From contig JBHGNT010000005.1 of assembly GCA_043228905.1 (NCBI GenBank), forward strand, positions 18,848,001 through 18,912,000: a DNA stretch of 64,000 bases. Direction: 5' to 3'. The notes under the pieces were generated by a model. It saw only the letters and a program-made list of their open reading frames with translations, was not told where the DNA came from and did no database searches. Shown one piece after another: positions 1,781 to 34,609 of the stretch. Each line of letters begins with the position of its first letter. The stretch's first letter is position 1. The stretch comes from Azolla caroliniana. Lineage: Eukaryota; Plantae; Polypodiophyta. The position numbers and the translations under genes are program-made.

Positions 1781-1789
1781 GTTGTAAGA

Positions 1790-2080
1790 GGTCACCCAAC
1801 CCTATCAGAGGTTGCCCAAAATTACCTATTGTGGTCACCCAACCTACATATTTTGGTTTCCCAACCTACCTATTGTGGTTGCCCAACCTCTATAATATAT
1901 GTGGTTGCCCAACTTGTCATTTCAGTTTGGTCACCCAACCGACTTTAAATGTGGTTGCCCAACCTATCATTTAAGTTTGCTCACCCAACCGAGTTTCAAT
2001 GTGGTTGCCCAACCAAGTTTTAATGTGGACATGTGGTTGCCCAACCAAGTTTTAATGTGGCCATGTGGTCGCCCAACCTT
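1790..2080. repeat. Irregular minisatellite of GTGGTTGCCCAACC-type units
   Basis: About a dozen GGT(T/C)(G/A)CCCAACC cores with variable spacers. Confidence 0.85.
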
Positions 2081-9486: not shown

Positions 9487-9645
9487 CTTGTCCGATCCGA
9501 GCGGCTTGGTGAAGATGTCGGCAACTTGCTAATCCGTATGAACATACCGTAGGTCAACTTCACCGCTCAGGACCCGCTCATGCACGAAGTGGTAGTGCAC
9601 CTCGATGTGCTTTGTGCGAGCATGGAACACAGGGTTCCTGGCGAG

Positions 9646-12246: not shown

Positions 12247-12314
12247 ACCGAAAATGACTTGTTTCGTTTGCAGGTCTTGAAGCCTCCGGTAGTTGACGTG
12301 GGTATCCGCTTGTG

Positions 12315-13694
12315 CTACAGGTCGATGTCCGACTCAACCTTCTGTCGTTTTGCGAACAGAGCGGTGCCAAAGTCATTGGTGTTGAGGATAAACATCCTCC
12401 CGTCTCTGTGCCCTTGCGCAATGACTTCGCCCTCATCCTCAATGAAGCACCCGAGGTGCGTAAACCGCACCTGCATCCCCTGGTTGACAATCTGACCGAC
12501 GGACACCAGCTTCCCTTTTTGTCCGACGTGGCTTAGAGGGACTTCTCCGACGTGCACGATTGGGTGAGGAGTGTCGTCTCCGGTTTCGACTACTCCTGGT
12601 TGATCCGGTTTCTCCAGAAAGGAGAACCACTCTTTGTGGCTTGTCGTGTGGTTCGACGCGCCGGAATCAACATACCACACTTCCTCCGTTTTGGAAGTGG
12701 TCTTCTTCATTGAGTTTGCCTTGTGATTCATCACCAAGGCTGGCCCCTTATTGGCCTTTCCGGTTCCGGATCCTCCTGATCCGTTTGCGTAGTGCGAGTT
12801 TTGCCGGCCATCCTTACCAATCTTGCCGGATCCGGATTTGTCCGAATCGGCACGCTTTCTCCAGCACTCGCTTTCCCTGTGGCCTTTTTTGCCACAATAC
12901 CAGCATTCCGTAGCGGATTTGTCTTGTCGGCTTCCGGCACCGCCTTGACTTCCCCTACTTGTGGAAGTCCCGGAATTGTTGTCGGCACGCTCATAGTGCC
13001 TCTGTTCCTGCTCTTGCCGGCCGCCTCCATTGCGTGCCGACCCACCTCTTCCACCACGCCCACGGAGCCGATCCGTTTCCGTGTACAACATTCGGCTGTC
13101 CGGGGATGCACTGGTAGATGCACCGGCGTGGTTCTCCTCTACAAGGAGCATCGACTGTAAGTCGAAGAATGAGGGGGTATTCTCCCTTGTACACACCGCA
13201 GTACGGAACGCTCCGAACTTGGACGCCAGGCCTCCGAGGCATACCTGCACCATCTCGTCTTCCTCTATGGTAACATTGATAGAGGCGAGCGAGTCGTAGA
13301 TCTCCTTTATCCGGCCCGTGTAGTCTGCCACGAACATGTTCTTCTGTCGAACATTGCTCAACTCCTGTCTGAGTTGCAGCTTCCGGGCAGTGGTGCTTGC
13401 GGCGAAAACCTTTTTCAGGTTCCCCCAAGCATCCTTCGGTGTCTTGGTGTCACGGATGTGGCTGAGCAGCTGATCGCCGACACTGGACGCGAAGCAGTAC
13501 ATCACCCTGCTTGCCGCCTGTTCCCATACCGGGAAGTCCTTGTGTGCCGAGTCGGGCGCCGCATCATTCACTCCTTCGACATAACTCCAGTACCCGTGTC
13601 CAAGCAGGTACTGGTGCATCTTGTAAGACCAGGATGCGTAGTTGCTCCTGTCGAGCTTCTCCACCGGGAGCGACGTAGCCATGCCTCTATCCAT
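12315..13694 (-). CDS. Copia gag and protease (TGG->TAG stop in the GAG-pre region)
   Basis: Copia gag N-terminus, CCHC knuckle CWYCGKKGHRESEC, protease WYVDSGASNH. Confidence 0.93.
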   Translation of the reverse strand: MDRGMATSLPVEKLDRSNYASWSYKMHQYLLGHGYWSYVEGVNDAAPDSAHKDFPVWEQAASRVMYCFASSVGDQLLSHIRDTKTPKDAWGNLKKVFAASTTARKLQLRQELSNVRQKNMFVADYTGRIKEIYDSLASINVTIEEDEMVQVCLGGLASKFGAFRTAVCTRENTPSFFDLQSMLLVEENHAGASTSASPDSRMLYTETDRLRGRGGRGGSARNGGGRQEQEQRHYERADNNSGTSTSRGSQGGAGSRQDKSATECWYCGKKGHRESECWRKRADSDKSGSGKIGKDGRQNSHYANGSGGSGTGKANKGPALVMNHKANSMKKTTSKTEEVWYVDSGASNHTTSHKEWFSFLEKPDQPGVVETGDDTPHPIVHVGEVPLSHVGQKGKLVSVGQIVNQGMQVRFTHLGCFIEDEGEVIAQGHRDGRMFILNTNDFGTALFAKRQKVESDIDL

Positions 13695-13776
13695 GTCTTC
13701 TACTGTGTCTGTTTTCGACTTGTTAAGGTTTTCTTCTCAAGAGTAAATGTCTGCAGCAGAGGTTCTCAACCCTCGC

Positions 13777-13788
13777 GCTCTGATACCA
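13777..13788 (-). other. Primer binding site, tRNA-iMet
   Basis: TGGTATCAGAGC directly after the 5' LTR. Confidence 0.95.
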
Positions 13789-14193
13789 TGTAAACGTAAG
13801 TGTTTGCGGAAGCGTAAAACAAAGAACAACACACAGAGAGAGAGCCAGAGAGAGAGAGAGAGAGCAGAACACAATTTCAAAATTATATCAAGACTCTGTA
13901 CACACACTGTGCTAAGTAGCACTATTTATACAAGTCCTCTTGGGACTGACAGAAGTACCATGTACTTCAATGCTCACACGAGCATCTGACACTTACTACG
14001 AGACTATAGCTACCTAGTAGTCTATCCTATACTAGGCTTCCGATTGGACTTCCGGTTACAGATTGCACCCGGCCTCCACTGCTTGCCGGTTCGGTTGCTC
14101 ACCGTCATACCGATCCGTTTCGCCCGATCCGTCTCGCTTACCGGCTTCGGCTTATTCAGTCGATCCGGCTCCGGTTGAGCTTGCCGCTCAACA
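13789..14193 (-). repeat. 5' LTR of copia (405 bp)
   Basis: TG...CA termini, adjacent PBS. Confidence 0.95.
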
Positions 14194-15260
14194 TACTATA
14201 GCAACAAACTTGTACTCTTGTACATCATCAAGTTCAACAAGGGGTGAATGTGGTTTAATACGATTTGGAATAGAACTTACCAGTCATGAAGAGAGAATGA
14301 TGAAATGCTAGATGTAGCTAGTGGCCACGATTGTGGGGGAAAATTAAGACGAATGTTTACATGATTGATTTTTGCATTAATGACGAAAGGGCTTAGTTGT
14401 TGATAATGCAATTTGGCACATGGTCTAATAGCCTTCATATGATGTCATAATAACCATACTCGATCTCCAACTTGAAATCTGGTTGGAAGTTGATGTTGAT
14501 CTGCATTGGATTTGTGTGTTACTTGAGCTTCCTTTAGATGAGTGGAAAGTTCTGTCTAAATATGTCGTACTCGATCTAAATGATCATGAGCACTAAGGTT
14601 TGTTGGTAATTTAGGAGCTTCCAATAATCATTATCAAGGATGGTAACTTGTGTATGCATAGAATGGTGTAACCCTAATAGAGGAATGTACAAAATGTTAT
14701 ATGTAAAATCTGCAAAATGTAATATATTGGCTCGATCATCTTGTTGATAATTGATGAACCATCAAAGATTCAGCTCTAATGTTTGATTTGTATGTTTTGT
14801 TTGATCATCAATTTGTGGATGATAACCCGGGAGGAGTTTGCAAGAGACTTTGAGCATTGTGAAGAGATGCATCCAAATTTTAGATATACATTGTGGGCCA
14901 CAATAATTAATGATGTTGTTTGGAAGACCATGGTCACGAAATGCTTCACACATGACCAAATTTGATGTTTCCTCACTAGTGATGTCTTTAGTGTATGGCA
15001 AGAAATGTGCCATTTTATTATATCAATAAACTATTGTTAATATAATATTGAACCCCATAGAATGTGGAAGATCTGTAATAAAATCTAAACACATAGATGG
15101 CCATGGCTTGTTTGGAATTGACAATGGCTGTAATACTTCGTAAGGATGATGTTGAGGCATCTTTGTTATACAACATGCATCACAGGTGCGAACATATTCT
15201 TTGAAAAATTCATATAGATGAGGCCACTAGAATGATTGTGTCAACAAATCCAAGGTCTTG
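14194..15260 (-). pseudogene. Old chromovirus-type gypsy integrase remnant, cut at the start of its chromodomain by the copia
   Basis: MAHFLP..HGLP..YHPQIDDQTKHTNQTLE; near 14200-14270 it reads PNRIKPHSPLVELDDVQEYKFVAIV, resembling a chromodomain start. Confidence 0.75.
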
Positions 15261-15787
15261 TGGACAAACACCAAAATACCCAACCATATATGTATCATTG
15301 CAAAATGTTGTATGACTTGGAGGGAGGATGGCCTGCACTTTTACTAGATAATGTTCCGATGGTCAAAATTTCACATGAATCTCAAAGCTATCCTTGCACT
15401 GTCCATTGTATATGTATATGTATGCATGTCTCACGTAATCTCAACCATTTTGAATTGAATGAATTCATTCGGATAGCAGATGGAGATGCAAATGCAAAGG
15501 GCAACACCCAACACACCACAATCCACAACACAACGCAACTTAAAACAATACAACACAAACTTAACACTACAAAATCCTTGCTCTCTCATCATATTCGCTA
15601 CCTCTTCTTCTTCCTCTTCTTTTCCTTCTCTTCCTTCTCCTTCTTCATCAGACTCTTAAGAGAATTGTTTAGCCACTCCAGTCTGTCAGTCTGACAGACA
15701 AAATGGCTACGAAAGATCTCTCTCCCTCTCTCTCTCTCTCAGAACAATCAAGAAAGCAAAGCTCGGCGAACAGTTTTCCCCCTCCCT

Positions 15788-15958
15788 ATGTTGTCTCCTT
15801 CCAATTCTTCTTCTTCTTCTTCTTCGGCAATGGCCGTAGAACAGAAGCTTGTCATCAGTGAGGAGCTCCTTCGTATTTGGAAGACCTCCTCAAGCTCTCA
15901 GAAGCTCCATGTTCAGCTTCCTCCTGCACGCTTCATCTACGAGCTCTTCTGGACTGTG
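15788..15958 (+). CDS. THO2: First coding exon of a THO complex subunit 2-like gene
   Basis: EQKLVISEELLRIWKTSSSSQKLHVQLPPARFIYELFWTV resembles, from memory, the plant THO2 N-terminus (ECKYVTEEFVRE.K....KL...P.LRFLYEL.W). GTGAGT donor at 15959 (phase 0) and a CT-rich leader upstream. Alternative start at 15830. Confidence 0.75.
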
Positions 15959-16959
15959 GTGAGTGCCTTTCTCCTATTATTTTTACCCTTTCCGTTGTTC
16001 TGTTGTCGCTACTTCTTTTCCCTATTTGTTTTCTCTGTTTGAAGACAAGATGATGGCAGTTTTTAGACTGCGTTGGAAAACATATACTTGATTTCTGCTT
16101 CCATTATCATGAAGAAAAATGAGATTTTATTTGCTTTTTCAAGAGTAGGAAATCATGAGGAAGTAACTCGTGTCCAAGGAAAAAAAGCTTTATTTCTGCT
16201 TTGTGTCTCAAGAGGAGAATATTTTCTCGTTTCAAGAGAAGGAAATGGTGAAAAACAAAACTACAACTCCTACTCAAGGGAAAATGTCATTCCTTATGAA
16301 GAGAAAAAGCAGATTTTATTTGGTGAAGAGAAGGGAATGGTAAGAAGGTAGCTCAAATTCAAGGAAAGCAGATAGCTTTCTTGGAAAAACAGATTGTATT
16401 TTCTGAAGCGAGGAAATGATGAAAGATGAAACTTGTGCTCAAGGAAAGTACAATGTTTTCTTTCTAATGAGGAAGAAAAGAGGATTTTATTTGATGAAGA
16501 GAGGGAAATGATGATGAAGTTGGTCATGCTCAAAGAAAGCTGATTTTAATTGCTGAAGAGAAGGAAATAGCTGGAAAGTAGTCCACGTTCAGAGTTGTAG
16601 TTTTAGTTCAAAGAATGGCCTTGTTCTGGTTCTGATGCTCAGTTGAAACAAATGAAAATAGTAGAAGTGAGCATAATTTGGGTGGGCAGGCAAATGGTAC
16701 ACATCCTCTTGGAACATGACCATTATGACATCCATATACCAAATGGTCATGATCTCATTCATTTACTCTAACGTCAACATGGAAACAACCACATCATGAT
16801 AAACCACATTGTCATTGAGTGCAAGGATGCATTCGTCGAGGTGCACCTACATGATGACAAACATAAGTAACACATGCGCACTCTTTTGGATCCCTTTTTG
16901 AAAGTATGTTACAAATTTGACATTATAATATCAAGAAGCCTAAAAGCCTTCGTGCCCAT

Positions 16960-18135
16960 TTCACCATAGTTATCTGATGGCGTTGCACGTCTTTGCATGT
17001 AATAGTCATAGGCCCAACCATTGGGTTGCATTGGGATGTTCAAGCCATGTGTCGATCCTTAGTTACGATGCAATGGTCGATCGACATGTTACATATCGTA
17101 TGTATCGCCATATATGCTATATTCTTCAAGGTGTTAGTCACCTTATTATTAAGTGGATTCAAGAGACTATTTGGTTAGTCACATTTGTAGCATCTACACT
17201 AGTCGCATCTTTGTCCAAAGCACCCAATGACTTGAGTGCAATGTGGGTATGAAGATGTAATCATGCTCAACCACATGTTCGAGGATGTCTTCCATCTTAA
17301 AACTTTGCTTTTGAAGTTGCACCCAAAGTGGGTCAACGATGTGGAACTTTTCTGACACCTCTTGAGACAATGTGTACTCCATCCACATGGTGAATGGACT
17401 CGTGGTCTACATGGATGCCATTTCCCCCCCAAGTTGCACATCATCCGCAAATCTGACTCATCCATGAAAACTGCGAGATTGAGTCTTTGACAAGCAAGCT
17501 AAAACCTTTTTCCAATCAACAATGCAAGTATATCGAGTGTTTGACATACAAGTTTTTCAAAACACAATGCTATTACTTGACAAATTGTTTGTTGGTTGTC
17601 ATGTCCTATGTTTTGGTGGCATTACCAAATCCAATGTTGTCAGTTCCCACATCAGGTGCACCCTCATTGGAATCTGATGTAATCTCCTCACATGGAGTTA
17701 GGTCCACCTCATTTTGTCTTACAATATTTTTTCCCTTCTTGGTCTAGTTGATGGTGTCTTGTCACATGGTTGGTGTTGTCCACAATAGTTGATAAAGCAC
17801 CATCATCTGTTGATATCCCAACCTTCTTACACTAAAAATTTTATGGTTTGACTCAACATATTATAAAAGCCATACCTTGTTTTAGTCACATACTAATCAA
17901 TTTTGAAGTTTCATACTTATATAATAATCATATCTAGATGCAAACTTTATCTTCAACTTGTCTAATCATTCTTTTCTAGAGTCGTTTATTGCTACCTCGT
18001 GAATTGTGAATCTTGCCATGAATCTTGACTTAGTGTTGTCTTAGAGTTTAATTGTAATGTGTAAGAACTGGGTTGCCACCCTTATCTTAAGCTTCCTCAT
18101 GTGTGATTGATGATTTTGTGTGTATTTTACCTCGG
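16960..18135 (-). pseudogene. Ulp1-like peptidase remnant, copy B
   Basis: KFHIVDPLWVQL...DYIFIPTLHSSHWVLW (catalytic His region), with a degraded IPMQPNG motif downstream. Confidence 0.65.
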
Positions 18136-18141
18136 GCTCCT

Positions 18142-19295
18142 TAAAATGCTTTAGTCACTATTGTTGCTCGTAGTTGTTGAAAAATGTCATGCCACTATTC
18201 TTCTCTATCGTACCTTGTTTCATTTCCTCTATCCTTAGCCCTCTTGGAAACATTATATCAATGCCATGTACCTGTCATAACATAGTGACATAAAATTAAT
18301 AGTTGTGAGGATTGAACCTACAACCTCACATCAATAAGATATAATGCTCAATCATTTGGATATAAACATATATTTGTATATAATAGGTAAGTATTGTATA
18401 GTTTAACATATAGTACATTCTAGAATATTCTAGTCTTTAATATATTTTAGAAATATTCTATTATGTATTTTAGACAGATATATTTTAGAGATATTTCTCG
18501 AGTATATTTTAGAGATATTCAATCTTAGAACTTGTATAAATACCTGTAACTTCTTTGCTCCTTTTTAAGGGATTCAATGCTAGTCATTGGCACATCAATC
18601 TAGTATTCTTGTTTCGCACCATCTTGTCTCGATCTTTATCTTTGTCTTCATTCTCTTTTGTTATTTCTAGTGTTTTAAGTTCCTCGGGAAGTTGAGAACA
18701 ATGATTTGAGGAACTTAGAACATTGGGAATGACGCAAGACAATGAAGATAGAGAGGAAGATCGAAACAAGATGGGCAAAACGAGAATACTAGATTGATGT
18801 GTTAATGACTGACGTTTAATCTATTAAGAGGGACCAAAGAGGTTACAAGTATTTATACAAGTTCTAAGATTGATTATCTCTAGAATATACTCGAGAAATA
18901 TCTCTAAAATATATCTATCTAGAATACACTATAGAATATTTCTAGAATATATTAAAGCTTAGAATATTTTGAAATGTACTATATGCTAGATTATACAATA
19001 CTTAACTATTATATACAAATACATACTCATATCTAAATGGTTAAACATGCCATTTTATTGATGTGAGGTTATTGGTTTAATCTTCACCAACTATATATTT
19101 TGTCACTGTGTCGTGACAATACCTTTTGCAAGTATGTCATTATCTATTATTTTTTCCAAAATCATTGTTGTGCTCGTTGGGATTACTCAAGCATTATACA
19201 TGATCAAGATTTTATCCACACTTAATATTGACCACATTTGAAGAGCAAAAGTGGGTTAAGTAAATCTAGTGTAACATATACATTAGAATTGTTGG

Positions 19296-19337
<42 letters not shown>

Positions 19338-19856
19338 TTATAGGATTATGACAATGTACATAAACTCAGCTATTGGAGGAGCATATTTACACACATTGAC
19401 AAAGATTGAGGCTAACAACATAGAGGCAACAATGGTCGTTTCTCATCTTTGGTTGGACCCCATACTGAAACATGTAACATAAGAGGAAGATCCTCCTTCA
19501 AAAGATGAGTTGATGTACATCATTGTAATCCTATAATAGTTATGTATATATCGACCAACCAATCTAATGCATATCTTATACTATATTTAGTTGACCCACA
19601 TTTGTTCTTAAAGTGTGGTCGAGATTCAATGAGGATAAAATCTCGATTATATATAATGCTTGCGTAATTATGGTGAGAGCAATGATGGTTTTAGAAGACA
19701 TAAAAGATGAAGGCACATTTGTGAAAGGTACATGGTATTGATGTAGTGCTTCCAAGAGGACTGAGGATAGAGGATAAAAACTAGGGTACTTCGGGGAAGA
19801 GATGTGGCAAAATGTTCTTAAGCAATTATAAGCAGCAACGGTCGCTAAAATGTTTA
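18142..19856. repeat. Older foldback palindrome (centre ~19435), interrupted by an 846-bp insertion
   Basis: 18142-18272 plus 19119-19385 is the diverged reverse complement of ~19490-19856. Confidence 0.85.
18273..19118. mobile_element. 846-bp fully palindromic LTR-like element with 5-bp TSD
   Basis: TGTCATAAC...GTCGTGACA ends, arms complementary up to a ~22-nt loop near 18695, flanks GTACC/ATACC. Confidence 0.85.
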
Positions 19857-20342
19857 CCTCCTCATTTTCAATGTACCAATCAAATCATTGTCTTCACTAA
19901 ATGGTGTCTCTAAATTGTGTGCACTAAATCTTGTTCGTTGTCAATTTGAGATATCTTCTAGTCTTGGTAATATCTTTCTTATTATGTTTATCGTTGTCTT
20001 CCTTAAACATCCAACTTTTGTCAGTGTAAAGTCATACACAATGATATCCACCTCACTAATGTCAATAATAGATGTATTACAAAAGTTTAAAGCATCACCA
20101 CGTCCAAAACTTTACCAATGCAGAATTGGTGCTCTAAGTGATGGCCATCTACATGTGTAGCTATTAATATCCCCACCTTGAGTTCTTGCAAGTTTCCTTG
20201 TCACCTGAGTTATGCTGGTGTTGTCATCCTTAGTTCCAGATAAATGTTTCTTTGTTGTAGATGAACCAAACTATGAAGATCAACATTAAGTGCTTGAAGT
20301 GGTGATTAAGAACCACGAGAATATTTTATACACCACATAAAT

Positions 20343-21625
20343 GACATTTGCAAGGTTCAATTACCATTAACACAATTCTTAATGGTTTTTTGTTAATCAG
20401 TGAAACACATGTTTACCATAAGGTGTATTGTGCAACATATTTCTTTGCAGTATCGATGTATATATTTTTCTCTTATAAAAACAGAGATTTTAGTACAATT
20501 CGAGTTCATGTAAACCCTAAACCTCTTTTATTTGAATAAAAATATAATTTTTAAACATGAACTCTATGCTTTATATCGAGTTAATGTAAAAAATAGAGTT
20601 TCGATCACAATTACATACAATGTATCAAATTCATGTTCAAAGTTTTTTTCTCGAATTTAAAAAAAATAAAAATAAAACAATTGAGCTTGAGTTGATGAAA
20701 AACCTAGTTTTTTCACCACAATTCAAACAATGTATAGAGTTCATGTTTAAAGTAATTTTTTCAAATTTTTTTGATATTTTATTTTTTTATTTATAATTTG
20801 TTTTTAAGAAAAAAAAACTTTAAACATGAATTCTATACATTGTATCGACTTCTAATGAAAACTCTAGTTTTTGCATCACTTAAAAAAAAAAGAAAAAAAG
20901 ACCCAAAATAGATAGAAAAAAATAAAAAAACTTTAAACATGAACTCAATACATTGTATCGAGTTCGTGTTGAAGAACTCAACTTTTTGACATGAACTCGA
21001 TGCAATGTATCGAGTTCACGTTTAAAGGTTTTTTTTTAGGGTTTTAAAAAAAACAATTTTGGTTTTTTTCTATTTATTTGGGTCCTTTTGGTTTTTTAAA
21101 AAAGAAGTTGAAATGATGAAAAAACTAGAGTTTTTATCACAAGTCGATACAATGTATTGAATTTATGTTTAAAAGTTTTTTTTTTCAAAAAAAAAAAAAA
21201 CATTCAAAAAAAAAAAAAAAAAAAAAACTTTAAACATGAACTAGGTACATTGTATTGAATTGTGGTAAAAAATCTGGTTTTTCATCAAGTCAAGTTCGAT
21301 TTTTTTTTTTTTAATTTGGGAAAAAAAACTTTGAACATAAATTTGATACATTGTATGGAATTGTGATGAAACGCTGTTTTTACATCAACTCAATACAATG
21401 TATGGAGTTCATGTTTAGAATTTTTTTTTTTCAAATAAAAGAGGTTTAGGGTTACATGAACTCAAATTGTACTAAAATATCTGTTTTGACAAGAGTAAAA
21501 GATGCATATCGATGTTGTAAAGAATTATGTTACACAACAAGATACCTTATGGTGAACATGTGCTTCCGTGATTAACAAAAAACCATTAATAATTGTGTTG
21601 ATGGTAATTGAACCTTGCAAATGCC
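20343..21625. mobile_element. 1.28-kb foldback element with modular internal palindromic repeats (MULE/FB-like)
   Basis: GACATTTGCAAGGTTCAATTACCA pairs with TGGTAATTGAACCTTGCAAATGCC; repeated CATGAACTC.ATACA.TGTATCGAGTTCATG modules with A/T tracts; centre ~20980. Confidence 0.85.
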
Positions 21626-21781
21626 ACATACCATCGTTTTGTATTAGGTTTTATTTTTCTTAATTAATTGTCTTAATCTCAATGTCTCTCTTTCTCTCTC
21701 ACCTTTGTATTCTTTAACTCTCACTATCCCTCTTACATACATCCATCTATTGTATACCGCTTGCACTCCTTGCATTGACCT

Positions 21782-23465
21782 AATTGAAAAATGAGAAGGC
21801 ACATTTGTTCAATAATATACATTGGTATGTCACAACAGGAGGGAGAAAATACAGAGATTGCTCATGTATACATGAGGAGAAAGTTCCTCTTTATAAAGGC
21901 CAAGATCTGGCCATTAGACTAACTAGCTATTAGAGCTAACTAGCCGTTGGGCTAGCCATTATAACTTTTAATCATTCAACACTCCCCCTCAAGATGGGCG
22001 AAAATATCCACTAAGCCCATCTTGTCACACAATTTAGTAAAACTTACTTGCCCAATTCCCTTTATAAGACAATTTGCTACTTGATGTTCAATAGAAACAT
22101 GACTCAATTTAAAATTTCCATTATCAAGTTTCTTCTCGATAAAGAATTTGTCGATTTCGATGTGCTTGTTCCTCTCATGCTGTACCGGATTGTTGGCAAT
22201 GTTGATTGCTGACTTATTGTCACACCACAACATCATCTGATTTTTTTGATTCACCCTTAGTTTTACTAGGAGAGTTCTCAACCATAACATCTCCGCAACT
22301 CCTACAACAATAACTTTATACTCTGCTTCGACTGTTGACCTTGTTACTACTGACTGTTTCTTACTCTTCCAAGAGACTAGATTGCCCCCAACAAACATGC
22401 AGTATCCTGATGTGGATTTCCTATCAAATGACGGGTTGAGATGTTTTCAAAATTGCATGGTTCTTCTTTGAGTAGAAATTCTTTGCTCTTACATTGAGGA
22501 TCATTGCACACTGTCATAGGCGAGAAATGATCATATTCTCCCTATAGACCCTCCAACTCTATGGCATATTCTTGAATCATCATATCTCCCTACCAGACGA
22601 TATCTATCTCTTGCTCGATTTGAAATACTTTCATGTTATTTCCCCTCCCAACATACGTCTTTTGCAATTTCTCCCAAATTTCCTCAACACTTAAAATTCC
22701 ATCAACGATTGTGGCGATTGATGGAACCATGGAGTTGAGAAGTCATGCGTACAAAGACATGTGGGTAGCTCTCCATGCTTTCCAATCATTGCTTGTTTTG
22801 ACAAGAGGTTCTTTCTCTTCTCTTGTTAGGTAGCCGTCAAGGCTTCTCCCTGCCAAGGCACCTATAATTCGACGCGACCAGCTCAAGTACGTGGCTGGTC
22901 CATCGAGTTTGAACTCAATTGGGAGGAGTTCAAGTTGAGGTAGTGGTTGTGTTCTTGTCACACCTCCATATGCTACAATCTCGGCTTGCTTCATGTATTT
23001 CACTAATGTTTTCACCTCATCCTCGTTCAATTTTAAGAACACCTCATCCATCTTCTCAAATTAGCCCATCTCTGCTCTCCTCTTCTGAATTCTTTTCTCA
23101 AGTCGCCTCTCAATCACATAGCAATGTCATCCCTTAAGGGAAAAAATCCCCTTTCCTCTCTTGGATGCTAGGATAGTGCTGTTCCAATCGTGGTCATACC
23201 AACAAAAGGGTGGATCTAGGTTTTGCAGAGGGTTGATCTAGGGTTTTATAGAGGGGCGGATCTATGCTCTAATACCAAATTGAAAAATGAGAAGGCACAT
23301 TTGTTCAATAATATACATTGGTATGTCACAACAGGAGGGAGAAAATACCGAGATCGCTCATATTTACATGAGGAGAAAGTTCCTCTTTATAAAGGCCAAG
23401 ATTTGGCCGTTGGGCTAACTAGCTATTGGAGCTAACTAGCCATTATAACTTTTAATCATCCAATA
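21782..23465 (-). mobile_element. Internally deleted Ale-like Ty1/copia (LTRs 21782-21981 and 23278-23465)
   Basis: TSD GACCT on both sides, PBS TGGTATTAGAGC, PPT, gag start (KLDGPATYLSWS) joined to RNase H (GGNLVSWKSKKQ..HIEID). Confidence 0.9.
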
Positions 23466-23494
23466 GACCTCAAGGTCAACAACTCCTAAACCTC

Positions 23495-26400
23495 GATGTA
23501 AAGTACACATAAAATTGTCAAACACACATGAAGAAGCTTAAGGTAAAGGCGGTGTGCCAATTCTAGTCCACTTCGATTCAATACCAAGGAGAAAATGAGC
23601 TAGAATTCGTGGCAAGATTCATGGCTTATGAGTTGAGGATATGTCATTAGACAAAGGAAAAATAGATGGAGAAGCTAAACATAATGATTGATGTTGGATA
23701 TAATTCTTATGTAAATATAAAACGTCAATATTATTTTGAATGTGACTGACTTTTGTAATATGTTGAGTCAAATTCTTAATTATGCAATGTAAGAAGGTTG
23801 GAAAATCAACAAATGATGGTGGGTTTCAATCGGTGGTGAACAAAGCCACCCATTTGAACATGGGACATGATGGCCAACAAAGAATTTGCTAGGCAATATC
23901 GTAATGTTTTGAAAACTTGCATGTTGAAGACCGCATCCAACTTACATTGTTGATTGGAAATAAGTTCTAGTTTTCATGTCGAAGAATTGATCTCGTGGTT
24001 TTTGTGGCTAAGTCTAATTTGAGGGCGATGTGCCAAGTGAGGGAAAATGACATCCACATGGACCATGACTATTTCACCATGTGGATGGAGTTCACGTGGC
24101 CCAAAGAGGTGTCTGAAAGGTTCCACATCGTCGATTCACTTTGGATTTAGCTTTAGAATCAAATTTCTAAGGTGGAAGACATCCTTGACCAAGTGCTAGA
24201 GCGCGACTATGTCTTCATACCCACGTTGCACACAAGTCATTAGGTGCTTTGAACGAAGATGCAACATAGTTAAATTAGTGTATTTGTTACGAAGGTGACC
24301 AACCATCTAGTCATTTGTGATCCACTTTATAATGGGTGATTGGTGCCTTGCAGAATCTAACATATATGGCGATATTGTGTCGTGATGTTTTCAAAACAAT
24401 GTGTGAAGCCACCCTTAATATGAAATAAAATAGTAGGTCAAATAAATTAATATTGTTAAGTAAACATTATTAGTAACAAAAATACATTTACATTTGTTAA
24501 AGAGCATGTTTTATGAATGAAAGGTCATAATTTTAAATCTTGTAATAAATGGTAAATATAAAGTTGGAGATGGTTTTCAAAAGTAGATAAAAAAACTTAG
24601 AAAAAAGTGGGATAAAAAAAGTAAAGTGTGGATATAAAGAGTTAGGTAAAGAAAAAAGCTCATAATTTCTTCATCCGATATCCAAGTTCAAAAAGAAAAG
24701 ATTCATAAGAAAGCTAACAAGAAGAGCTTCCCAAAAATATCTCTCTTCGCCCCCCCTTCTTTGATAAACTATCATATTATAAAATAAATCGTAATTTGAT
24801 TCATATGTTATAAAAGCTCTTAATTTGTAAACAAGTAATGTTTCCTTTCACCTATGTGTCTTTTGTGTAAACCTTCCCCTTGTATGATTATATGTCTTGT
24901 GATTGGGGACCGTTTCAAGCGTGCTCATGTACCCCTCCTTTCACAAAGGCATTTTAACTTTTGTGTCTCGTGTGTAAACCTTTCTTTTGTGTTATCGTGT
25001 GTCTTGTGACCGGGAAGGTTTTAGGAAACCATGCACCTCTCCTTATCATAAAGGCGTTTGGACATTCGTTTGCGTGTTCTTGTCTTTTGTTTGTGTGTTC
25101 ATGTGTCTTGTGACGGGGAAGGTTTTGGAAAACAATGCACCTCACTTTCTCATAAAGGCGTTCGGTCATTTGTGTGCATGTTCTTGTTTTTTGCTTGTGT
25201 GTTTGTGTCTTTTGACAAGGAAGGTTTTGGTAAACCTTGCACTTCTCCTCCTTATAAAGGCGTTTAGGCATTGGTGTGCTTGTTCTTGTCTTTTCTTTAT
25301 GCGTTCCGTTGTCTTGTGATGAGGAAGGTTTTGAGAAACCATGTACCTCTCCTTTTGACAAAGGCATTAAGATTTGTGTCTTGTGTGTGTAAGCCTTTTT
25401 CTCATACATTTGTTTGTCTTGTGACTAGGGGTTTGGGAATAAAGGCACAAGAGTGCCCAAACGCCTTTATGAGAAGTGTGCATTGTTTCTTAAAACCTTC
25501 TTCGTTACAAGACGAACAAACACACAAGGAAGAGACACGAGCACGCATATAAATACTGAAACGCCTTTATCAGGAGGTGCATGGTTTCTCGAAACCTTCC
25601 CCATCACAAGACGCATGAACACACAAGCAAGAGACAAGAACACACACACACGAATACTTGAACGATTTTATGAGGAGGTGAGGTGCATGGTTTCCCGAAA
25701 CCTTCCCTGTCACAAGATGCAGAACACACAAGGAAGAGACAAGAACATACACATGAAAGTTCGAACACCTTTATGAGGAGTTGAGGTGTATGGTTTCCCG
25801 AAACCTCCCCGTCACAAGATGCACGGACACACACAAGCAAGGGACAAGAATACATACATAAATGTTCGAACGCCTTATGAGGAGGTGAGGTGCATGGTTT
25901 CTCGAAACCTTCCGCATCTCAAGTCACATAAACACACAAAAGCGAAAGAGAAGAACAAGGACACGAATTTCGGAAAGCCTTTATAATGAGAAGTCCATGG
26001 TTTCTCAAAACCTTCCTTGTCATAAGACACACGAGACACAAAAGTTTGAATGTCTTTGTAAAAGGAAAGATACATGGGACACTCTAAACTCTCACCAATC
26101 ACAAGACATATGAACACATAAGAGGAAGGTTTATACATAAGACACGTAGGTCAAAGGAAAAATGACTTATTTACAAATTAAGAGCCTCTTTTATAAAATA
26201 AGAATAAAATTCAACAGGTTCTCGCATAAGAAAATAGTTTATCAAGGGGGGCGAAGAGAGATGGAGAAAAGAAATTAGTGGAGCATAAAAGAGAGAAATC
26301 CTTGATTGTTAATGAGGTCCCCCAATTTGACAGCTTCGTTGTCTCCTCTTGATGTTGAAGCTTCACGCTCTTCTTAGTTAAGATCCCTCTTCTTTTGCAT

Positions 26401-27000
26401 TTTGATTCCATAGAGTTTACGCGTCTTCTTCTTTTCTCTTATTCCATAGATGTTTTTTATTTTTATCACTATTTTTTTTTTTGTAATCTTAAATTTAATA
26501 TGCTAGATATTTTTGGAAAGCTCTTCTTGTTAACTTTCTTATGAATATTTTCTTTTTGAATTTGGATATCAAATGAAGAAATTATGAGCTTTTTTCTCTA
26601 CCTAGCTCTTTATATCCATGCCTTGCTTTTTTTCCTCACTTTTTTCTTTGTTTTTTTATGTACTTTTAAAAACCACCTCCAACTTTATATCCTTCGCCAT
26701 TTATTACAAGATTAAATCCTATGACCTTTCATTTATAAGGCACACTCTTTGACAAATGTAAAAGTATTTTTGTTACTAACAAAGTTGACTTCACAACATA
26801 TTAGTTTATTTGACCTATTATTTTATTTCCTATCCGGGTTGGTTTCACACATTATTTTGAAAACATCACAATGGATGGTATATAGCGTGCCGGCCAACCA
26901 TTGCATTACAATAGAGGGTTCACATCACACCTTGTACGTCCCAATGCAACTAATGGTAGGATTTGTGGCTATTACGTGGAGTTCATTGAACTGCTAGAAG
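23495..27000 (+). pseudogene. Ulp1-like peptidase remnant, copy C, split by a 2.5-kb palindrome
   Basis: Inverted homologue of 16960-18135. The His motif (DYVFIPTLHTSH) lies before 24377, and the VPMQ..G..CGYY-like Cys region resumes after ~26872. Confidence 0.65.
24378..26872. mobile_element. 2.5-kb foldback element with internal ~100-bp tandem repeats
   Basis: GTGATGTTTTCAAAACAATGTGTGAA pairs with TTCACACATTATTTTGAAAACATCAC; inner repeat arrays switch strand near 25435. Confidence 0.85.
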
Positions 27001-29002
27001 GGATTGTTAATGGAGTCCCTCATCTAAATCTGATGTAATCTTTTCACATTGGATCGGATCCATCTCTTTCTATTAGACTTGGATTTTGGACCTTCTCGGT
27101 CTGATTGGTTTGATACAAATAGTTTCAAGATCTCGCTTACCAAAAACAGTTATCGATGAATTTTTCGTTGTTGATCAAACCATTACTCATATTAGTGATT
27201 GCATTTTTGGGATAAATATGTACTTGTCTTGTTGTGCGCGATGACAAGGATATATGAAAAAATAGAATAGGCTAGAAAATGAGAAAATGTTTTAGCAATC
27301 AATTATGTAAAATGAATCTATCTGAATCAATTCATCAAGTTATTTTGCTATTAGTAGAATTAGGTATTCTATTGGGGAGTGTGGGAATAATATTACGTCA
27401 AACGTTTCAAACTCTTTGGATTTAGTAGCCAAGTTTGTTAAACATGGAGTTATATTCATAAATCATGCAAGTTTGATAAATGTCACATAGAAGTTTCCAA
27501 AAATCATCCAATGCATTTTAGCAAACAAAACCCATATTCAAAAATCATCCATTTTAGCAAACAAAATTCTAAAACACATGTTCTACAATCATCCAACGCA
27601 TTTTAGCAAACAAAATCGTTTTCGAAAAGCAAAATCATGTTTAAGAAATCATGCAAGTTTGATAAATGCCCCGTGCAAGTTTTCAAAAATCATGGAATGC
27701 ATTTTAGCAAACAAAACCATTGTAAGTAAACAAAACCATTTACAACAAACAAAAGTAGGAATTTGGTAGCAAACCAATAAAATATATATTTTTTCGATCG
27801 ATAGATGGCACGAACATCAAGACCTTATTCAACCCCCCCCAATCTCTGATCCTGCATCCAATGTTGAGCAAAATTATGCTTGAACTCTAAGAAGGCATGT
27901 GTGGCGCCTCCGTTCCTTATAAAATGTTGAAATTAGGTGCTAAGAGCTTATTTCGGGTCAACCACTTTGTGGTTGGGCCATACAATCAGGGTTTCTTCTT
28001 TTTATTCTTTAGATTTAGGGTTCTTTGTCTTCGTCTTTTCTCAACATACTTGAGATTTTAGGGTTTTCTTCTTCGTGAGTATTTAGGGCTCTTCTTGTGT
28101 TCTCAAATGTACCTTGAGATCGATTCTCTAGCGGGAGCCATTATTCTATGATGGATTCAAAGAAGTGGTTCGACAAACTCGCATGTTGGTTGTCGAAGGG
28201 GAGGATGAATGGCCCGAGAACACCACTTCAATTTTAGGCATCATAGCCATCAAGGTAGTTGTGATCTCGATGGCCCACTTGACTCGCACCTTCATAGGAA
28301 ACTTAACTAACTCCCCAACTTTCATTTTTATTTAAATTTAATTGTTGCCGTTTAACCATTCATTGTATCACTTCTCGTTACCAATATTGTATCTATTCAC
28401 TATGTACAATTTTGTAAACCTTATGTTATAAAGGGATTTGCTTTCTTTATAAAGTAGCCCATTTTTCTTAATATTGTGCAATCCTCTCGTAATCTTGTGT
28501 TTCTAGCACTTATCACATATTTTGATCCTAACCTGCTGTAGTAATTGTTGTTTGGCTCGTTGATCCCTTCAAGTCTAAAGTCCATTTGACTACATAGAGC
28601 TTTCAAGTCTTCAAACATCTACACCCTCCTAGTCTTTGCGTCCTCCCTAGTCCAAGACCCTCATGGTCACGCTCTGAATGTGTTTTGTGTCTTCTAATTT
28701 CAATTTTGTGTATGGTTAGTTTTGAGTACACTAATCTTTGAATGTGTGTTCTTATAAATCTTATTTGAGAGGGGTTTGAGCACTGGTATGGTCATGATGT
28801 CATGGCTCTCCTACGCCTTACTATCACAAAGTGGACACACCGTGTTTTGGGCCTTTTAATATTGTAACTTCATTATGTTATTTTGCCATCCCATATTGGG
28901 CTTGTAAGTTTTGTTACTTTGCCACGTGGTATTGTAAAATCTATTATTTTGCCTACATCATATTGGGCATGTAAATTCTCATTGGTATTGCAAATTTTCG
29001 GC

Positions 29003-29257
29003 TCATAATAGCCATTTTTCCATAATCAAGAAGTCAATTTTGCAATATTGATGTTGATACTCTAATATGATGTTGTCTTTGGTTTCAGCTCGTAATAGCC
29101 ATTTTGCCATAATCAAGAAGTCAATTTTGCAATATTGATGTTGATACTCTAATATGATGTTGTCTTTGGTTTCAGCTCGTAATAGCCATTTTGCCATAAT
29201 CAAGAAGTCAATTTTGCAATATTGATGTTGATACTCTAATATGATGTTGTCTTTGGT
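29003..29257. repeat. 87-bp tandem repeat, ~3 copies
   Basis: Near-identical units starting near 29003, 29090 and 29177. Confidence 0.9.
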
Positions 29258-30616
29258 ATGTTGTATATTGTATATTGTCAAATGTATATGATGTTGCCAT
29301 AACATTGGTATGTAATGTTTGTGGTATATGATGTTGCCATAATTTTGTCAATTTTAAGTATATGATGTTGTATAAGATCATGCAATCATGTGTATGAAGA
29401 CGGAGTGTTAGATTAGATAGTTGGGATCTTATCTATCTGATAGAGATGCAAATGTTTGTCTTGTGTGTGACTTCACTGTAACCTGGGGCCTATATACTAA
29501 CCCGGACCTTGTTTAATGTAAAATTTTAAACAACCCGAGGAAGTAATTTATGTCTGCAATCCAAGAATAATTATGTTTATCACCAACTACTTGCAATGAT
29601 ATTGTTTCGACAATAAGAAAACCACCACCTCCATCAACAAATTTTTTGCAGATTTTGAAGTGATTTACACAAGCAAAGCTATCAAAATCACATGAATTTG
29701 AGCAACCACATCTACCATTCCTGGATTGCTCTCTCATCCACAACACTCGCTGTCATATTGCTCGACATTTTCATATTTCTTTAAGTACTATCATATTGCT
29801 CTCATTTACACATTGTAACACCTTTAGATTCATGTGGGTTAGCCCTAAACCAGATGATTGATGCATATCATGTGGAAGAATTAGATTTTTTATTTGAGTC
29901 AGAATTCGAATTAGAGGAAACTGTCTGATGTAGGAACTTCAATTGAATGAAATGATGCCCAAGGGTCTGAGGTTGTTGAGACCAAGGATGACATGGATCC
30001 CTTCATGTAATGTCCCCCAAGGTATTTTGAGTTGTTGTGAAGTTATATGCATGCGTGTGAAAGCCTAGCAAATCCATTGAGGATTCGAACTATGGAGAAT
30101 AGAGTGGCAAACCTTTGTGGATACGATGCTCCAGTTGGCCAAAGTGCACTTGCTTGTTTGGATGTGTGCAAGGTTTAAGTCCAAGTTTGCTCGAAGTTTT
30201 ACATATATACTTGTGAGTATGTCAAGTTTAGCGTAATTCAATAATTGTTAACTAGTAATTTAGTTATTTATTACTTATTATTCATTTATCTTATTATTTG
30301 ATGATTTACTTGCTTAATTATTTACTTATTTAATCATTTGAATAATACTATTGTTTATTTATTTATTTATTTCAATTTCAATTGCTAAAATAATTTATTT
30401 ATTTACTTAACTAATATCATAACTCTTATTATCAAATTATTAATAAGATTATATCATTTACATATTTATTTTTTCTATTTATTTAATTATGTACCTAACT
30501 TTAGTATTAACATTAATGTCTCCATATTTTTTATTTTATTCTATTTACCTATTTATTAATCAATATAATTTATACTAAATTGTAAAATTATTGTTATTAA
30601 CTATTTTATGTTAATA

Positions 30617-30652
<36 letters not shown>

Positions 30653-30914
30653 AAATTAACATTAACTAACACATTAATTTTTTATTTATTGTAATATTAT
30701 TGCTATTATTTATCTTATTTTATTTACTATTAATATTTTATAAACAAGGTGTCAGATGGTCATCAAATAGCAATCAACATCAATGTCAATAAAGGACGGT
30801 GTCGTAATGTTCTTTTCAACATGTAGTGTGAAACCACCCTAAAAAGGGAATAAAATAGTAATTCAAATAAACCAATATTGTGAAGTCAATTTAAATTTGT
30901 TCACGAGAAAATAC

Positions 30915-31310
30915 ATTGAATGCAAAGATGTTTGAGAATAAAGCGCGATATAGAAGGTTCAAAGAAGGTAGGAACTCATCAACGGTCGGACTCTGACCCA
31001 TGCATGTACATCCGACAATTGACCGATGAGTCCCAGATCTACTTGATCTTGTATGTTGACGATATGTTGATTGTTGGGAGCAATCAACTAGAAATCGGAA
31101 GACTAAAGCAGAATCTTCACGAAGAAGGAACTCAGACAAGTCTGACATATCTCGGGCATGGGGATTAAGTGAAATCGGATGATAAAGACTCTCCGACTCT
31201 CCCAATCCCATTATATCCGAAAGGTGCTTAGAAGGTTTAACATGGAGAACGCTAAGTCGTCATCCACTTTGCTCTCCACGTCGACACGACTAACGGAAGG
31301 GACCTCCATC
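30915..31310 (+). pseudogene. Copia reverse transcriptase fragment (Tork/Tnt1-like)
   Basis: DSDPCMY..LILYVDDMLIVG; LSQSHYIRKVLRRFNM. Confidence 0.85.
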
Positions 31311-31344
31311 AACCGACAAGGAGAAAGAGGTCAATGGAAACATA

Positions 31345-31612
31345 TGTTAGGAACAGGTCCCTCCAGATGGGAAGCAAGCATGAACCGAATTGGAGTCCGG
31401 AGAAGAAACCAGAGCCATAGTCGGATCAACTGAAAGGCATTCGGTAGAATACGGTGAGGTCTAGAAGTGAACATATTTGTAAATATGTGTTGGCACGCCT
31501 AAGACCGGTTATATTTGTAAATAGCCCATAAAGTGTATGACATAGTGAGAGAGAAAGAGTGAGTGAGAATGAGTGTGTCACCTTTGCAACCTTTGATCTG
31601 ACGAGGAAGAAC
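31345..31612 (+). mobile_element. Partial LTR of the TGTTAGGAA family
   Basis: 5' end matches the LTRs at 32447 and 42706. Confidence 0.65.
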
Positions 31613-32180
31613 TCAAGGGATGTAAAAGTGTTGTGGCTTTAAGTTGCTCGGCTTTGTTAACCTGACATTGGTGACATTTAGTCACATAGCTATGTATGTC
31701 AGGGCACATCTTAGGCCAATAGAATTGGGTGAATATTAGAATGAGTGTACAATGTATTCCAGGGTGCCCTACTGAGGGTGCATCATGGCATTCAAAAAGA
31801 ATTCTCTTTTTGACCTCAGGCAAATTTGGAACACAGATGCCATTACGGTAGAGCAAACCGTTAGCAATGTGGAAGTATTCCTTCGAGGATGTGGTGGTGT
31901 CTGTTCCAGACTCAACTCTTGCCCAGTAATTCGCAAAATAACTATCATCAGGATACTTTCCTCGAAGGTGATCATAAAGATCTGATGTTATTTTAGTGAA
32001 GCTAAGCATGTTAACTTCACGAATGCGACTTAGTGCATCAACGAAAGTGTTCATGGAAGCTTTACGATATTGTATGGCAAAATCAAAGTCCTGGATGAGA
32101 TCAGTCCATCGTGCCTTACGACCTTTCAGGTCTTGTTGGTCACAAAAATATTTCAAGGACTCGTGCTCTGTAGTTACCCA
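31613..32180 (-). pseudogene. Gypsy RNase H end and integrase HHCC fragment
   Basis: ARWTDLIQDFDF..DALSR..ECHDAPSVGHPG..FYWP..CHQCQ. Confidence 0.85.
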
Positions 32181-32446
32181 ATATTACATCAGTGGTACAA
32201 AGATTCATTACATGGAAGTCTACTTCCTCTATATAAGTATCAATATAAATTCGTAATGAATGAATCACCCCGTTGATTTATTGTACTCTTCCATCAGCCA
32301 AGTACATTGTATAGTTGTGATCACTTACGATGGGTTGGATTCCCCATATCTGAACCAAACGATCATTCACAAAGTTGTGTGAGGTTCCCGAATCAAACAA
32401 AAATTGTACGGGAGATCCATTGACATACCCGTTTGCACGTAGTAAA

Positions 32447-33114
32447 TGTTAGGAAATAGGTACCTCCGGATGGGAAGTGAGAAGAACAATGTTGAGAAGA
32501 AACCGGATGACGAGTATCCGACAACGGAAGACCTGGTGAGAACCAAATGTGGAGTACCCGGCTACGGAAGACCTGGTGAGAACCGGATGACGAGTACCCG
32601 GTAAGAGCTGGATGGTGAAGGCCCGGTGAGAAGTACTCACCGGATGAAGGGACATATTCGTAAATATGTTTCTCTGAGAGTCCATCGGGGCTATATTTGT
32701 AAATAGCGGAAAAGTCATATTAGTATAAATATGACTTAGGGCAAACTTAGTGTTGTTGTTGTCATTCTTGTTGGTACAAGATTAGAGCGCGTAACTGTGT
32801 ACAGAGAGAGTGAGAGAGAGGAAGAGGTCGTTGCCTCTGTTGTAACCGCCGCCTGTGGCGAAGATAGCAAGCTCGAGGTCGTTGCCTCGGTGCTTTACTA
32901 TTGTACATTCTGATATAGTGATAGTTTGCAGTCTGTGGGTTGTGGTGGTTTTTTCCCTAGTTTGGGTTTTCCCTGTTAACACCCTGTGTACTCTTCTCTT
33001 CACTGTGTCGTGCGTTCATTACCTGATTTCTGTGTTTGATTCTAGGCTCGGTTGTGGCCGAGCGTTGTTCATTGGGAGCGTGTATCCCTGTCAGTAAATC
33101 ATTGGGTCCCAATA
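32447..33114 (+). mobile_element. LTR of the TGTTAGGAA family, no TSD recognised
   Basis: Highly similar to solo LTR 42706-43422; internal GAAGACC.GGTGAGAACC repeats. Confidence 0.8.
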
Positions 33115-33366
33115 CAGAGTGAGGGAAAGAACATTGACAATTACTTAAATGATTTGTATAGACCTCGACGACATTAGGAATCTGACCTTTATGGTCTGCA
33201 ACTTTTGCTTTGTTGTCGTGCTCTTTCCGTTGGAGCTTTCAACATTTTTCTTTTGTATGACCCTTCTTTTTGTAGAATACGCAAAAAGGATGTTGTCAGT
33301 TACAATTGTGATCCATGAATTCATTGGGTGTCTTGGTTTCCTAGCGAATTGCGACTATATAGAATA

Positions 33367-34607: not shown

Positions 34608-34609
34608 TC

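What the first reader, a model, noticed from the sequence alone, without database searches (positions are those of the whole stretch)
16960..27000. Russian-doll cluster of unrelated long palindromes inside an older ~10-kb inverted pair
Seen: four foldbacks with no obvious mutual similarity (18142-19856, 18273-19118 nested in it, 20343-21625, 24378-26872) lie between or within two divergently oriented Ulp1-like remnants that are inverted homologues. All arms are diverged, which argues against chimeric-read artefacts. Inference: either hairpin elements preferentially insert into cruciform-prone DNA, or a general palindrome-forming process acts here. If this is THO2 intron 1, the pre-mRNA would carry kilobases of dsRNA.
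Basis: partly seen in the sequence, partly recalled or inferred. Interest (0 to 1): 0.72.

Follow-up and report, generated by a model that had tools for sequence, protein, structure and literature searches.

The report
Copy-back LTR palindromes nested in transposon
The nested mirror repeats are real but are not foldback transposon families: two are retrotransposon end-repeats joined to a flipped copy of themselves, likely mis-copied during reverse transcription, a form that recurs at about one in eight sampled sites of one small family in this plant genome, and they sit in one old mirrored transposon behind an orphan copy of the THO2 gene start, not in THO2's first intron.

Summary
The inverted repeats exist (67-86% arm identity) but parse differently. 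'B' (18142-19856) is the core of the outer Ulp1-like pair: one old palindrome of a dispersed TIR-element family E, centre ~19385-19486. A (18273-19118) and D (24378-26872) are each two 5' (U3-side) parts of ordinary LTR families joined tail-to-tail; A has a 5-bp target duplication confirmed by an empty site. C (20342-21626) is an internal hairpin carried in by a fragment of a ~3-kb TIR family. U3-at-both-ends forms occur at 6 of 50 censused A-family loci; the window's arms share 1-2 mutations unique to them against 20-31 private per arm, so they likely formed at insertion (strong-stop copy-back). Tight foldbacks are rare elsewhere (2 in 800 kb versus 4 in 10 kb), but three independent events are not beyond genome-wide chance. 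The THO2 exon here is an orphan duplicate; the real gene starts ~90 kb downstream. The scan has noted one-off fold-back LTRs before, in this genome and others; the family-level rate and timing were tested here. Transcription is untested.

The parts
15455..16679 (+). Orphan duplicate of the THO2 5' end: ~370 bp upstream, exon 1 (15830-15958, frame and GT donor intact) and ~720 bp of intron 1; fused to family E sequence at 16679/16680
   Evidence: 83-89% identical to G000:C5:18953700-18955500 (L086), where the full gene follows; its left boundary matches the end of an E-family terminal repeat in the real promoter (the match on the window side is weak)
16680..18272 (-). Family E, left arm, outer part; Ulp1-like protease remnant reading leftwards (HWVL near 17220, QPNGW motif near 17020)
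   Evidence: longer frames of relatives give Pfam ElaD-SseL-like_C E=0.005 (below cut-off) and an Atlas Peptidase_C48 lead 0.92
18273..19118 (.). A: palindrome of two U3-side ~410-bp parts of a ~470-bp LTR; both ends TG..CA; centre CCTC/GAGG with 22-nt loop; TSD GTACC (18268-18272)/ATACC (19119-19123)
   Evidence: family copies single-armed with PPT upstream or PBS-side internal region downstream; empty site L098 has GTACC once; junction found in no other of 40 scored of 112 candidates
19124..19387 (-).
   Evidence: contiguous with 17532-18272 in L064/L098
19388..19856 (+). Family E, right arm, inner part, including the ~99-nt centre loop (19388-19486), which is E sequence continuous with this arm; ~3-nt microhomology at the turn
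19857..21626 (.). Fragment of family F (~3.0-3.3 kb, TIR starting AACACGTT, 4-bp TSD), lacking both ends; contains palindrome C (20342-21626) with AT-rich palindromic subrepeats
   Evidence: 19857-20341 is 92.6-94.6% identical in 14 of 14 F loci and C lies at the same place in them; TSD matched 4/4 in 5 and 3/4 in 1 of the 6 copies with both ends seen, read by eye
21627..21776 (.). Unassigned 150 bp (continues as 23471-23483)
   Evidence: no match among the loci held
21782..23465 (-). Truncated Ty1/copia element, direct LTRs (89%), PBS and PPT, TSD GACCT; not palindromic
23484..24377 (+). Family E, right arm, middle part (Ulp1-like remnant reading rightwards)
24378..26872 (.). D: palindrome of two U3-side parts of a ~1.4-1.5-kb LTR with ~105-bp subrepeats; left arm has a ~260-bp deletion at 24742; turn near 25433-25459; TSD not readable, host E continuous within about 4 bp
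   Evidence: family has PPT-like tract before TGTCGTG and a TGGTGAACCCGACG primer site after the LTR end; empty-site comparison; X1 contig 25257-25840 bridges the centre
26873..26990 (+). Family E, right arm, outer part with the Q..G..CGYY-type motif
27016..27788 (-). Third, heavily deleted E piece (27016-27109, 27395-27788) in the orientation of the left arm, including the distal part both arms lack; gives a direct-inverted-direct layout

Best explanation
A and D are LTRs whose U5 side is replaced by an inverted copy of their own U3 side, likely made when plus-strand strong-stop DNA or a nascent strand switched template at a 3-4-nt microhomology during reverse transcription, giving DNA with two U3 ends that integrase likely inserted as one piece. 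Shown: the parent LTR families, the orientation, A's target duplication and empty site, recurrence at other loci, and near-absence of mutations unique to both arms. Inferred: that the switch happened in the particle rather than on the chromosome just after insertion. They landed in an older palindrome of the Ulp1-bearing TIR family E, itself likely a fold-back inverted duplication as old as the family. C is a family-borne hairpin that arrived inside an F fragment. The cluster is then mostly a TE nest in which rare copy-back forms coincide, possibly helped by A-family insertions favouring E- and D-containing tracts.
For: Parents are ordinary LTRs. Census of exact U3 starts on C1-C8 plus the first on C9 (57 rows, 50 loci, all examined): 9 loci carry an inverted LTR segment and 6 have U3 at both outer ends (5 events, 4 without the window). 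TSD is 5/5 at L224 and at L215 (outside the census), 4/5 in the window, 3/5 at L212 and L213, absent at L217. U5-anchored: 4 of 27 loci inverted, L284 with U5 at both element ends and TSD 3/5. D family: 1 fold-back (L283) in 20 census loci, 0 in 11 best-hit loci. Timing: shared departures unique to both arms are 1 (A) and 2 (D) against 29/31 and 26/20 private; at L219 arms differ 9.7% and each differs 8.8-8.9% from the partner LTR; L283 has 1 shared against 15/20 private. A's arms are sisters, 98/93 among 56 rows, with bootstrap not fully settled. L214's inverted piece joins PPT-LTR-internal start, a join found in circular or tandem intermediates.
Against: E and C are palindromes of non-retro sequence, so reverse transcription cannot be the only source. 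Affected LTRs include 5', 3' and solo ones and both polarities, which chromosomal switching at the LTR's ~12-bp terminal repeat also predicts. A's arms share 13-15 departures from the family state (12 of 13 also in other copies), and recurrent transitions cannot be dated. Counts are small and young perfect palindromes may be purged or mis-assembled. A particle-level origin does not itself explain clustering. D's TSD is unreadable; L213's arms (55 bp) are closer to each other (5.5%) than to any other copy (7-10%).
Confidence: 0.55

Rival explanations
1. Chromosomal template switching: a normal LTR inserts, a stalled fork folds back at a microhomology and re-enters at the LTR's terminal inverted repeat, keeping the TSD. 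The old E palindrome makes the locus fragile, which explains the cluster.
For: All turns examined have 3-4-nt microhomology and templated loops; both polarities occur; E and C show fold-back in non-retro DNA; direct-inverted-direct E layout; loop-back and strand-jump switching described in 10.1101/2023.04.19.537475 (passages); clustering of inverted triplications in palindrome-rich AT tracts in 10.1101/2025.01.14.632981 (abstract).
Against: In 6 of 6 other loci the shared fraction of mutations is 0.05-0.38, where a random later date would average 0.5; L219 arms are as old as its LTR pair; L215, L224, L217 and L283 formed far from any long palindrome that I detected within 1.5-5 kb.
Confidence: 0.25
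2. Two cDNA molecules were joined U5-to-U5, or integrated in concert by one U3 end each, and the giant palindrome later collapsed at its centre.
For: A and D keep most of the LTR on both sides and lose only the U5 end; the outer TSD is kept; single-TSD complex insertions from two templates are known (PMC1950507, first half read).
Against: Short asymmetric forms (L215: 75+22 bp, L224, L213) and the in-element forms L219 and L284 fit a template switch better; A's two arms carry the same subfamily markers.
Confidence: 0.1
3. A, B, C and D are independent foldback or MITE-like families that prefer cruciform-prone DNA.
For: C is palindromic in most F copies; TG..CA ends with a TSD resemble TIR elements.
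Against: A and D copies elsewhere are mostly single LTRs with PPT or PBS; the A junction is unique among 40 scored; B is part of E.
Confidence: 0.04
4. Assembly or chimeric-read artefact.
For: Alternative contig C1200 ends inside A; no listed X1 contig bridges the centre of A or of E.
Against: Arms differ 12-25%, mostly by transitions; host sequence is continuous with TSD; X1 contigs bridge D's centre, the E/F join and C's ends with 0-2 differences.
Confidence: 0.02

Closest known systems
Solo LTRs and TRIM-type non-autonomous LTR retrotransposons
   Same: A family: ~470-bp LTRs, TG..CA, 5-bp TSD, PPT, short non-coding interior, paired LTRs ~1.2-1.9 kb apart.
   Different: The window copy and 5 other census loci have U3 at both ends with no U5; such a piece has no primer site and is predicted not to copy itself.
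Template-switch complex LTR insertions (Sabot and Schulman 2007, PMC1950507; first half of the text read)
   Same: Abnormal template switching in reverse transcription gives one insertion under one TSD.
   Different: Those have three direct LTRs and two cores; here the product is inverted and LTR-only.
Inversion circles from autointegration in Arabidopsis virus-like particles (PMC7197481; passages)
   Same: Inverted LTR-containing DNA and strong-stop pieces exist inside plant particles.
   Different: They are circular and described as non-productive; the forms here are integrated with TSD.
Mu killer of maize (10.1101/2020.01.09.900282 passages; PMC5501947 passage) and inverted pararetroviral loci (PMC9868043 passages)
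   Same: Inverted duplication of part of a mobile element that could give a long hairpin RNA.
   Different: Those are shown to be transcribed and diced; here arms are 12-25% diverged and neither transcription nor small RNAs are shown.
Ulp1-carrying MULE and CACTA elements (Kaonashi and others; PMC2528002 passages)
   Same: Family E has a Ulp1-like remnant, ~150-bp terminal repeats and, in one copy (L101), a 9-11-bp flanking repeat.
   Different: No transposase found, so the superfamily is open; KI-MULE is described as non-TIR.
Replication template-switch inversions and inverted triplications (10.1101/2023.04.19.537475 passages; PMC4689423 search listing only)
   Same: Fold-back at microhomology with re-entry; direct-inverted-direct layout of E.
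   Different: The miRNA-scale events concern stems of tens of bases; here arms run 0.1-2 kb and date to insertion.

Membership tests
Foldback/MITE DNA transposon family (for A and D) | Many dispersed copies with the same two-armed structure | tested here: not met
   41 of 50 A census loci have no inverted segment and the others have different turns; 30 of 31 D loci have no fold-back
Foldback/MITE DNA transposon family (for A and D) | No LTR-retrotransposon signals | tested here: not met
   PPT before and primer-site region after family copies
LTR retrotransposon LTR (parent of A) | TG..CA ends and 5-bp TSD | tested here: met
   L007, L228, L240, L242, L248 and the window
LTR retrotransposon LTR (parent of A) | Paired direct LTRs with PPT next to the 3' LTR | tested here: met
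   L115, L219, L227, L237
LTR retrotransposon LTR (parent of A) | tRNA primer-binding site and autonomous gag-pol partner | tested here: inconclusive
   a conserved GTTTGAATCC follows 5' LTRs but was not matched to a tRNA; no linked gag-pol seen in L113-L115
Canonical solo LTR (window A, D) | One U3-R-U5 unit in one orientation | tested here: not met
   U5 end absent, U3 at both ends
LTR retrotransposon LTR (parent of D) | TG..CA, PBS, PPT, TSD | tested here: met
   PBS TGGTGAACCCGACG in L102, L109, L270, L277 (tRNA-Trp match recalled, from no call); purine tract in L107, L276, L279, L283; 4-bp TSD CCGG in L275
Mutator-like element with Ulp1 (family E) | Ulp1/C48 protease domain | tested here: inconclusive
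   His and Cys motifs visible; Pfam only below cut-off; Atlas lead 0.92 with 149 of 256 shared features
Mutator-like element with Ulp1 (family E) | Long TIRs and 9-11-bp TSD | tested here: inconclusive
   ~150-bp TIR pair and GCCCATGGA(TG) on both sides in L101 only; no TIR found at the window copy
Mutator-like element with Ulp1 (family E) | MURA-type transposase | not tested
   none noticed in the E loci held; no dedicated search
Transposon-killer hairpin locus (Mu killer type) | Inverted duplication of TE sequence | tested here: met
Transposon-killer hairpin locus (Mu killer type) | Pol II read-through transcript across the hairpin | tested here: inconclusive
   no holder on record as RNA; contigs of one run guessed to be RNA lie on pieces from 17185 to 28686
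Transposon-killer hairpin locus (Mu killer type) | 21-24-nt small RNAs that silence the family in trans | not testable with these tools
   no small-RNA data
THO2 intron 1 | Lies between the gene's exon 1 and exon 2 | tested here: not met
   a second exon 1 sits 2.9 kb before exon 2, ~90 kb downstream; use of the window exon as a distant alternative first exon is not excluded

The most novel reading that the evidence does not exclude
Copy-back reverse transcription is a regular by-product, in about a tenth of insertions of this small LTR family, so retrotransposons routinely seed their own hairpin loci. At this site the duplicated THO2 promoter and exon drive one ~13-kb transcript through hairpins of four unrelated TE families, a retained multi-family 'killer' locus.
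Probability: 0.12. Interest if true: 0.8.

Novelty: new variant of a known kind. Interest (0 to 1): 0.46.

Why it matters
Integrated LTR-only palindromes with a single target duplication would be a route from retrotransposition to long inverted repeats, and so to hairpin RNA and self-silencing. A rate near 10% in one family, with both polarities and dates at insertion, makes the mechanism testable by particle-DNA sequencing. Such pieces also mislead annotation, since TG..CA ends plus TSD look like TIR or foldback elements. I saw no paper describing such forms at family frequency in the listings of ten searches; most hits were seen as listings only, so this is a weak negative.

Tried and rejected
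RNA: no RNA holder listed; this is no evidence either way. X2 laid nothing; X1 left 14500-15852, 18108-19460 and most of 28700-44000 without near-identical cover; these blanks are not used as evidence. The X1 joint 21781-23278 may be an LTR collapse or a solo-LTR allele. A long-gap pattern for U3-U3 pairs could not be run, so pairs were found from single-end lists of which only the first 100 rows are shown (100 of 115 for A, 100 of 232 for D; no inverted pair among the 100 D rows). Pfam on nine short window frames gave nothing at cut-off. The bacterial promoter scan is irrelevant here. E arms are not resolved as sisters (10% of bootstrap trees) and D arms only weakly (76/67). Faster mutation inside hairpins was looked for and not seen at L217, L219, L283; window A is about twice the family median. 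Ginger-type or MITE origin for A was considered and dropped once PPT-linked LTR copies appeared. No E terminal repeat found either side of the cluster. C20 matches to the 16680 motif did not yield an intact E element. Sequence look-up of A in earlier findings gave nothing. No supplements were read.
Full report
Setting. The window is G000:C5:18848001-18912000 of a 523-Mb plant assembly. An earlier scan note calls it a fern; I did not test that.

B is the core of the outer pair. Searches with the outer arm (131 candidates, 40 scored) and with B's right arm (36 scored) hit the same places. In L064/L098 the sequence runs from 17532-18272 into 19120-19387 without A, and from the reverse of 23490-23857 into the reverse of 19391-19849. 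So the left arm (16680-19387 minus A) and the right arm (19388-26990 minus inserts) are one palindrome of a dispersed family E. The ~99-nt centre loop is E sequence continuous with the right arm and turns at about 3 nt of microhomology. The arms differ 22-24%, as much as from the nearest other copies. A third deleted E piece at 27016-27788 lies in the left arm's orientation. E carries a Ulp1-like remnant (motifs; sub-threshold Pfam and an Atlas lead) and a ~150-bp terminal repeat that was found in 18 loci plus the window, nearly all E loci. Ulp1 domains occur in MULEs and CACTAs (PMC2528002, passages); the superfamily stays open.

A and D are LTR-derived. A's family (1555 candidates, 40 scored) consists of ~470-bp TG..CA units, preceded by a purine tract or flanked by 5-bp TSDs, and paired in short non-coding elements. 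The window copy is two ~410-bp U3-side parts joined tail-to-tail. The empty site has GTACC once, the window GTACC and ATACC. Its junction occurs in none of the other 40 scored candidates. D's family (679 candidates) is a ~1.4-1.5-kb LTR with ~105-bp subrepeats, a primer site after its end and a purine tract before its start; the window copy again has U3 at both ends, with an unreadable TSD.

C travels with a host. The 485 bp left of C are 92.6-94.6% identical in 14 of 14 loci, and C lies at the same place inside a ~3.0-3.3-kb TIR family F with 4-bp TSD. The window holds an endless fragment; another F copy lies 3 kb left of the window. A truncated copia with TSD GACCT follows.

The forms recur. 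Of 115 exact A-family U3 starts, 100 were listed. I examined all 57 rows on C1-C8 plus the first on C9, which make 50 loci: 9 carry an inverted LTR segment (window, L212, L213, L214, L217, L219, L224, L232, L252) and 6 have U3 at both outer ends; L213 and L232 are one event duplicated. L224 has TSD GAGCT on both sides; L215, picked because it lies in an E copy and outside the census, has TTCTC. Among the first 30 of 60 U5-end rows (27 loci), 4 are inverted, including L284 with U5 at both element ends. For D, 1 of 20 census loci and 0 of 11 best-hit loci fold back; L266 is an inverted duplication that includes flanks and was not counted.

Timing. In A, 13 shared departures were listed and 12 also occur in other copies; in D, 30 of 32 do. 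Private changes per arm are 29/31 and 26/20. At L219 the arms are as far apart (9.7%) as each is from the partner LTR (8.8-8.9%). In six other loci the shared fraction is 0.05-0.38. Against this: samples are short, L213's arms look younger than the family, and hot-spot transitions cannot be dated. I read this as formation at or just after insertion, and prefer a template switch of strong-stop or nascent cDNA that ends naturally at the U3 start (inference). Plant particles do hold inverted LTR DNA and strong-stop pieces (PMC7197481, passages), and template switching yields single-TSD complex insertions (PMC1950507, first half). Chromosomal switching remains a real rival, and is needed anyway for E and probably for C.

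Density. In 16 hand-picked 50-kb blocks there were 33 inverted pairs with arm >=100 bp and spacer <=10 kb, but only 2 with arm >=300 bp and spacer <=500 bp; one of them reads as a same-family solo LTR nested in reverse. The cluster has 4 in 10 kb: 0.0008 such bins expected genome-wide, 0.13 at the upper rate; for the three local events, 0.13 to 6. So the density is unusual, but a nesting rule is not shown. A-family copies lie in or beside E or D copies at L215, L216, L217 and L278; three of these were picked for that reason, so this is a lead. A survey of plant LTR insertions found only a slight palindrome preference (PMC6911290, passages).

THO2. The THOC2_N matches lie at C5:18959495 and 18962993. 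A second copy of exon 1 sits at C5:18954107 with the next exon 2.9 kb on. The window's 15455-16679 is an 83-89% identical duplicate with several amino-acid changes, starting where an E terminal repeat ends in the real promoter. The cluster is therefore not in THO2 intron 1.

RNA potential. A folds at -493 kcal/mol, z -43 against 20 shuffles; A, C and D keep 3-7 uninterrupted helices of 21 bp or more per strand. No holder is on record as RNA. Contigs of one run, guessed to be RNA, lie on pieces from 17185 to 28686 with 0-2 differences and bridge D's centre and the E/F join. That supports the assembly; transcription is not shown. Mu killer and inverted pararetroviral loci are the functional models (passages).

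Earlier notes. The scan has recorded single-TSD inverted-LTR insertions in this genome and one-off fold-back LTRs in fungal and fish genomes; I did not check them, the term 'copy-back' and the Sabot and Schulman lead come from them, and they are not counted as support.

Verdict. Real, partly mis-parsed; a new variant of known template-switch products, notable for its family-level rate. Interest 0.46.

Noticed in passing
window 1413-1800; L092 1846-2298; L101 4628-4953; L026, L022, L074: The 1500-1777 palindrome is two E-family terminal repeats joined head to head; such pairs recur, often beside (TATG)n tracts.
   Followed up: partly
L086 1580-1690 (G000:C5:18953580-18953690): The real THO2 promoter contains an E-family terminal repeat ending where the duplicated segment begins.
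   Followed up: partly
L214 / L296 (G000:C4:7084600-7086800): A-family element with an inverted piece joining PPT, LTR and the start of the internal region, the join of a one-LTR circle or tandem array.
   Followed up: partly
L284 (G000:C1:6528847-6531865): A-family element whose 5' LTR is inverted from position 107 to its end while 19 bp of U5 stay before the internal region.
   Followed up: partly
G000:C8:16602151-16603671: 708-bp inverted pair made by a solo LTR nested in reverse ~100 bp past the primer site of a same-family element.
   Followed up: partly
L264-L283, L102-L112: D-family insertions often have a 4-bp target with central CG that has decayed differently on the two sides.
   Followed up: no
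G000:C30:204338-208919 (L124, L126, L127): Tandem array of A-family LTR units with ~752-bp period.
   Followed up: no
L087 3066-3413 (THO2 intron): A 350-bp AT-rich palindrome inside the real THO2 gene, with no match among the other loci held.
   Followed up: partly
window 8411-14193, 37150-42675, 43639-50676: Near-intact copia with 99.4% identical LTR ends, an older relative, and a gypsy with 98% identical LTRs.
   Followed up: no
G000:C20:8810000-8846000: Three near-identical ~3-kb segments with PPR and LINE fragments, and MULE-type transposase frames nearby.
   Followed up: no
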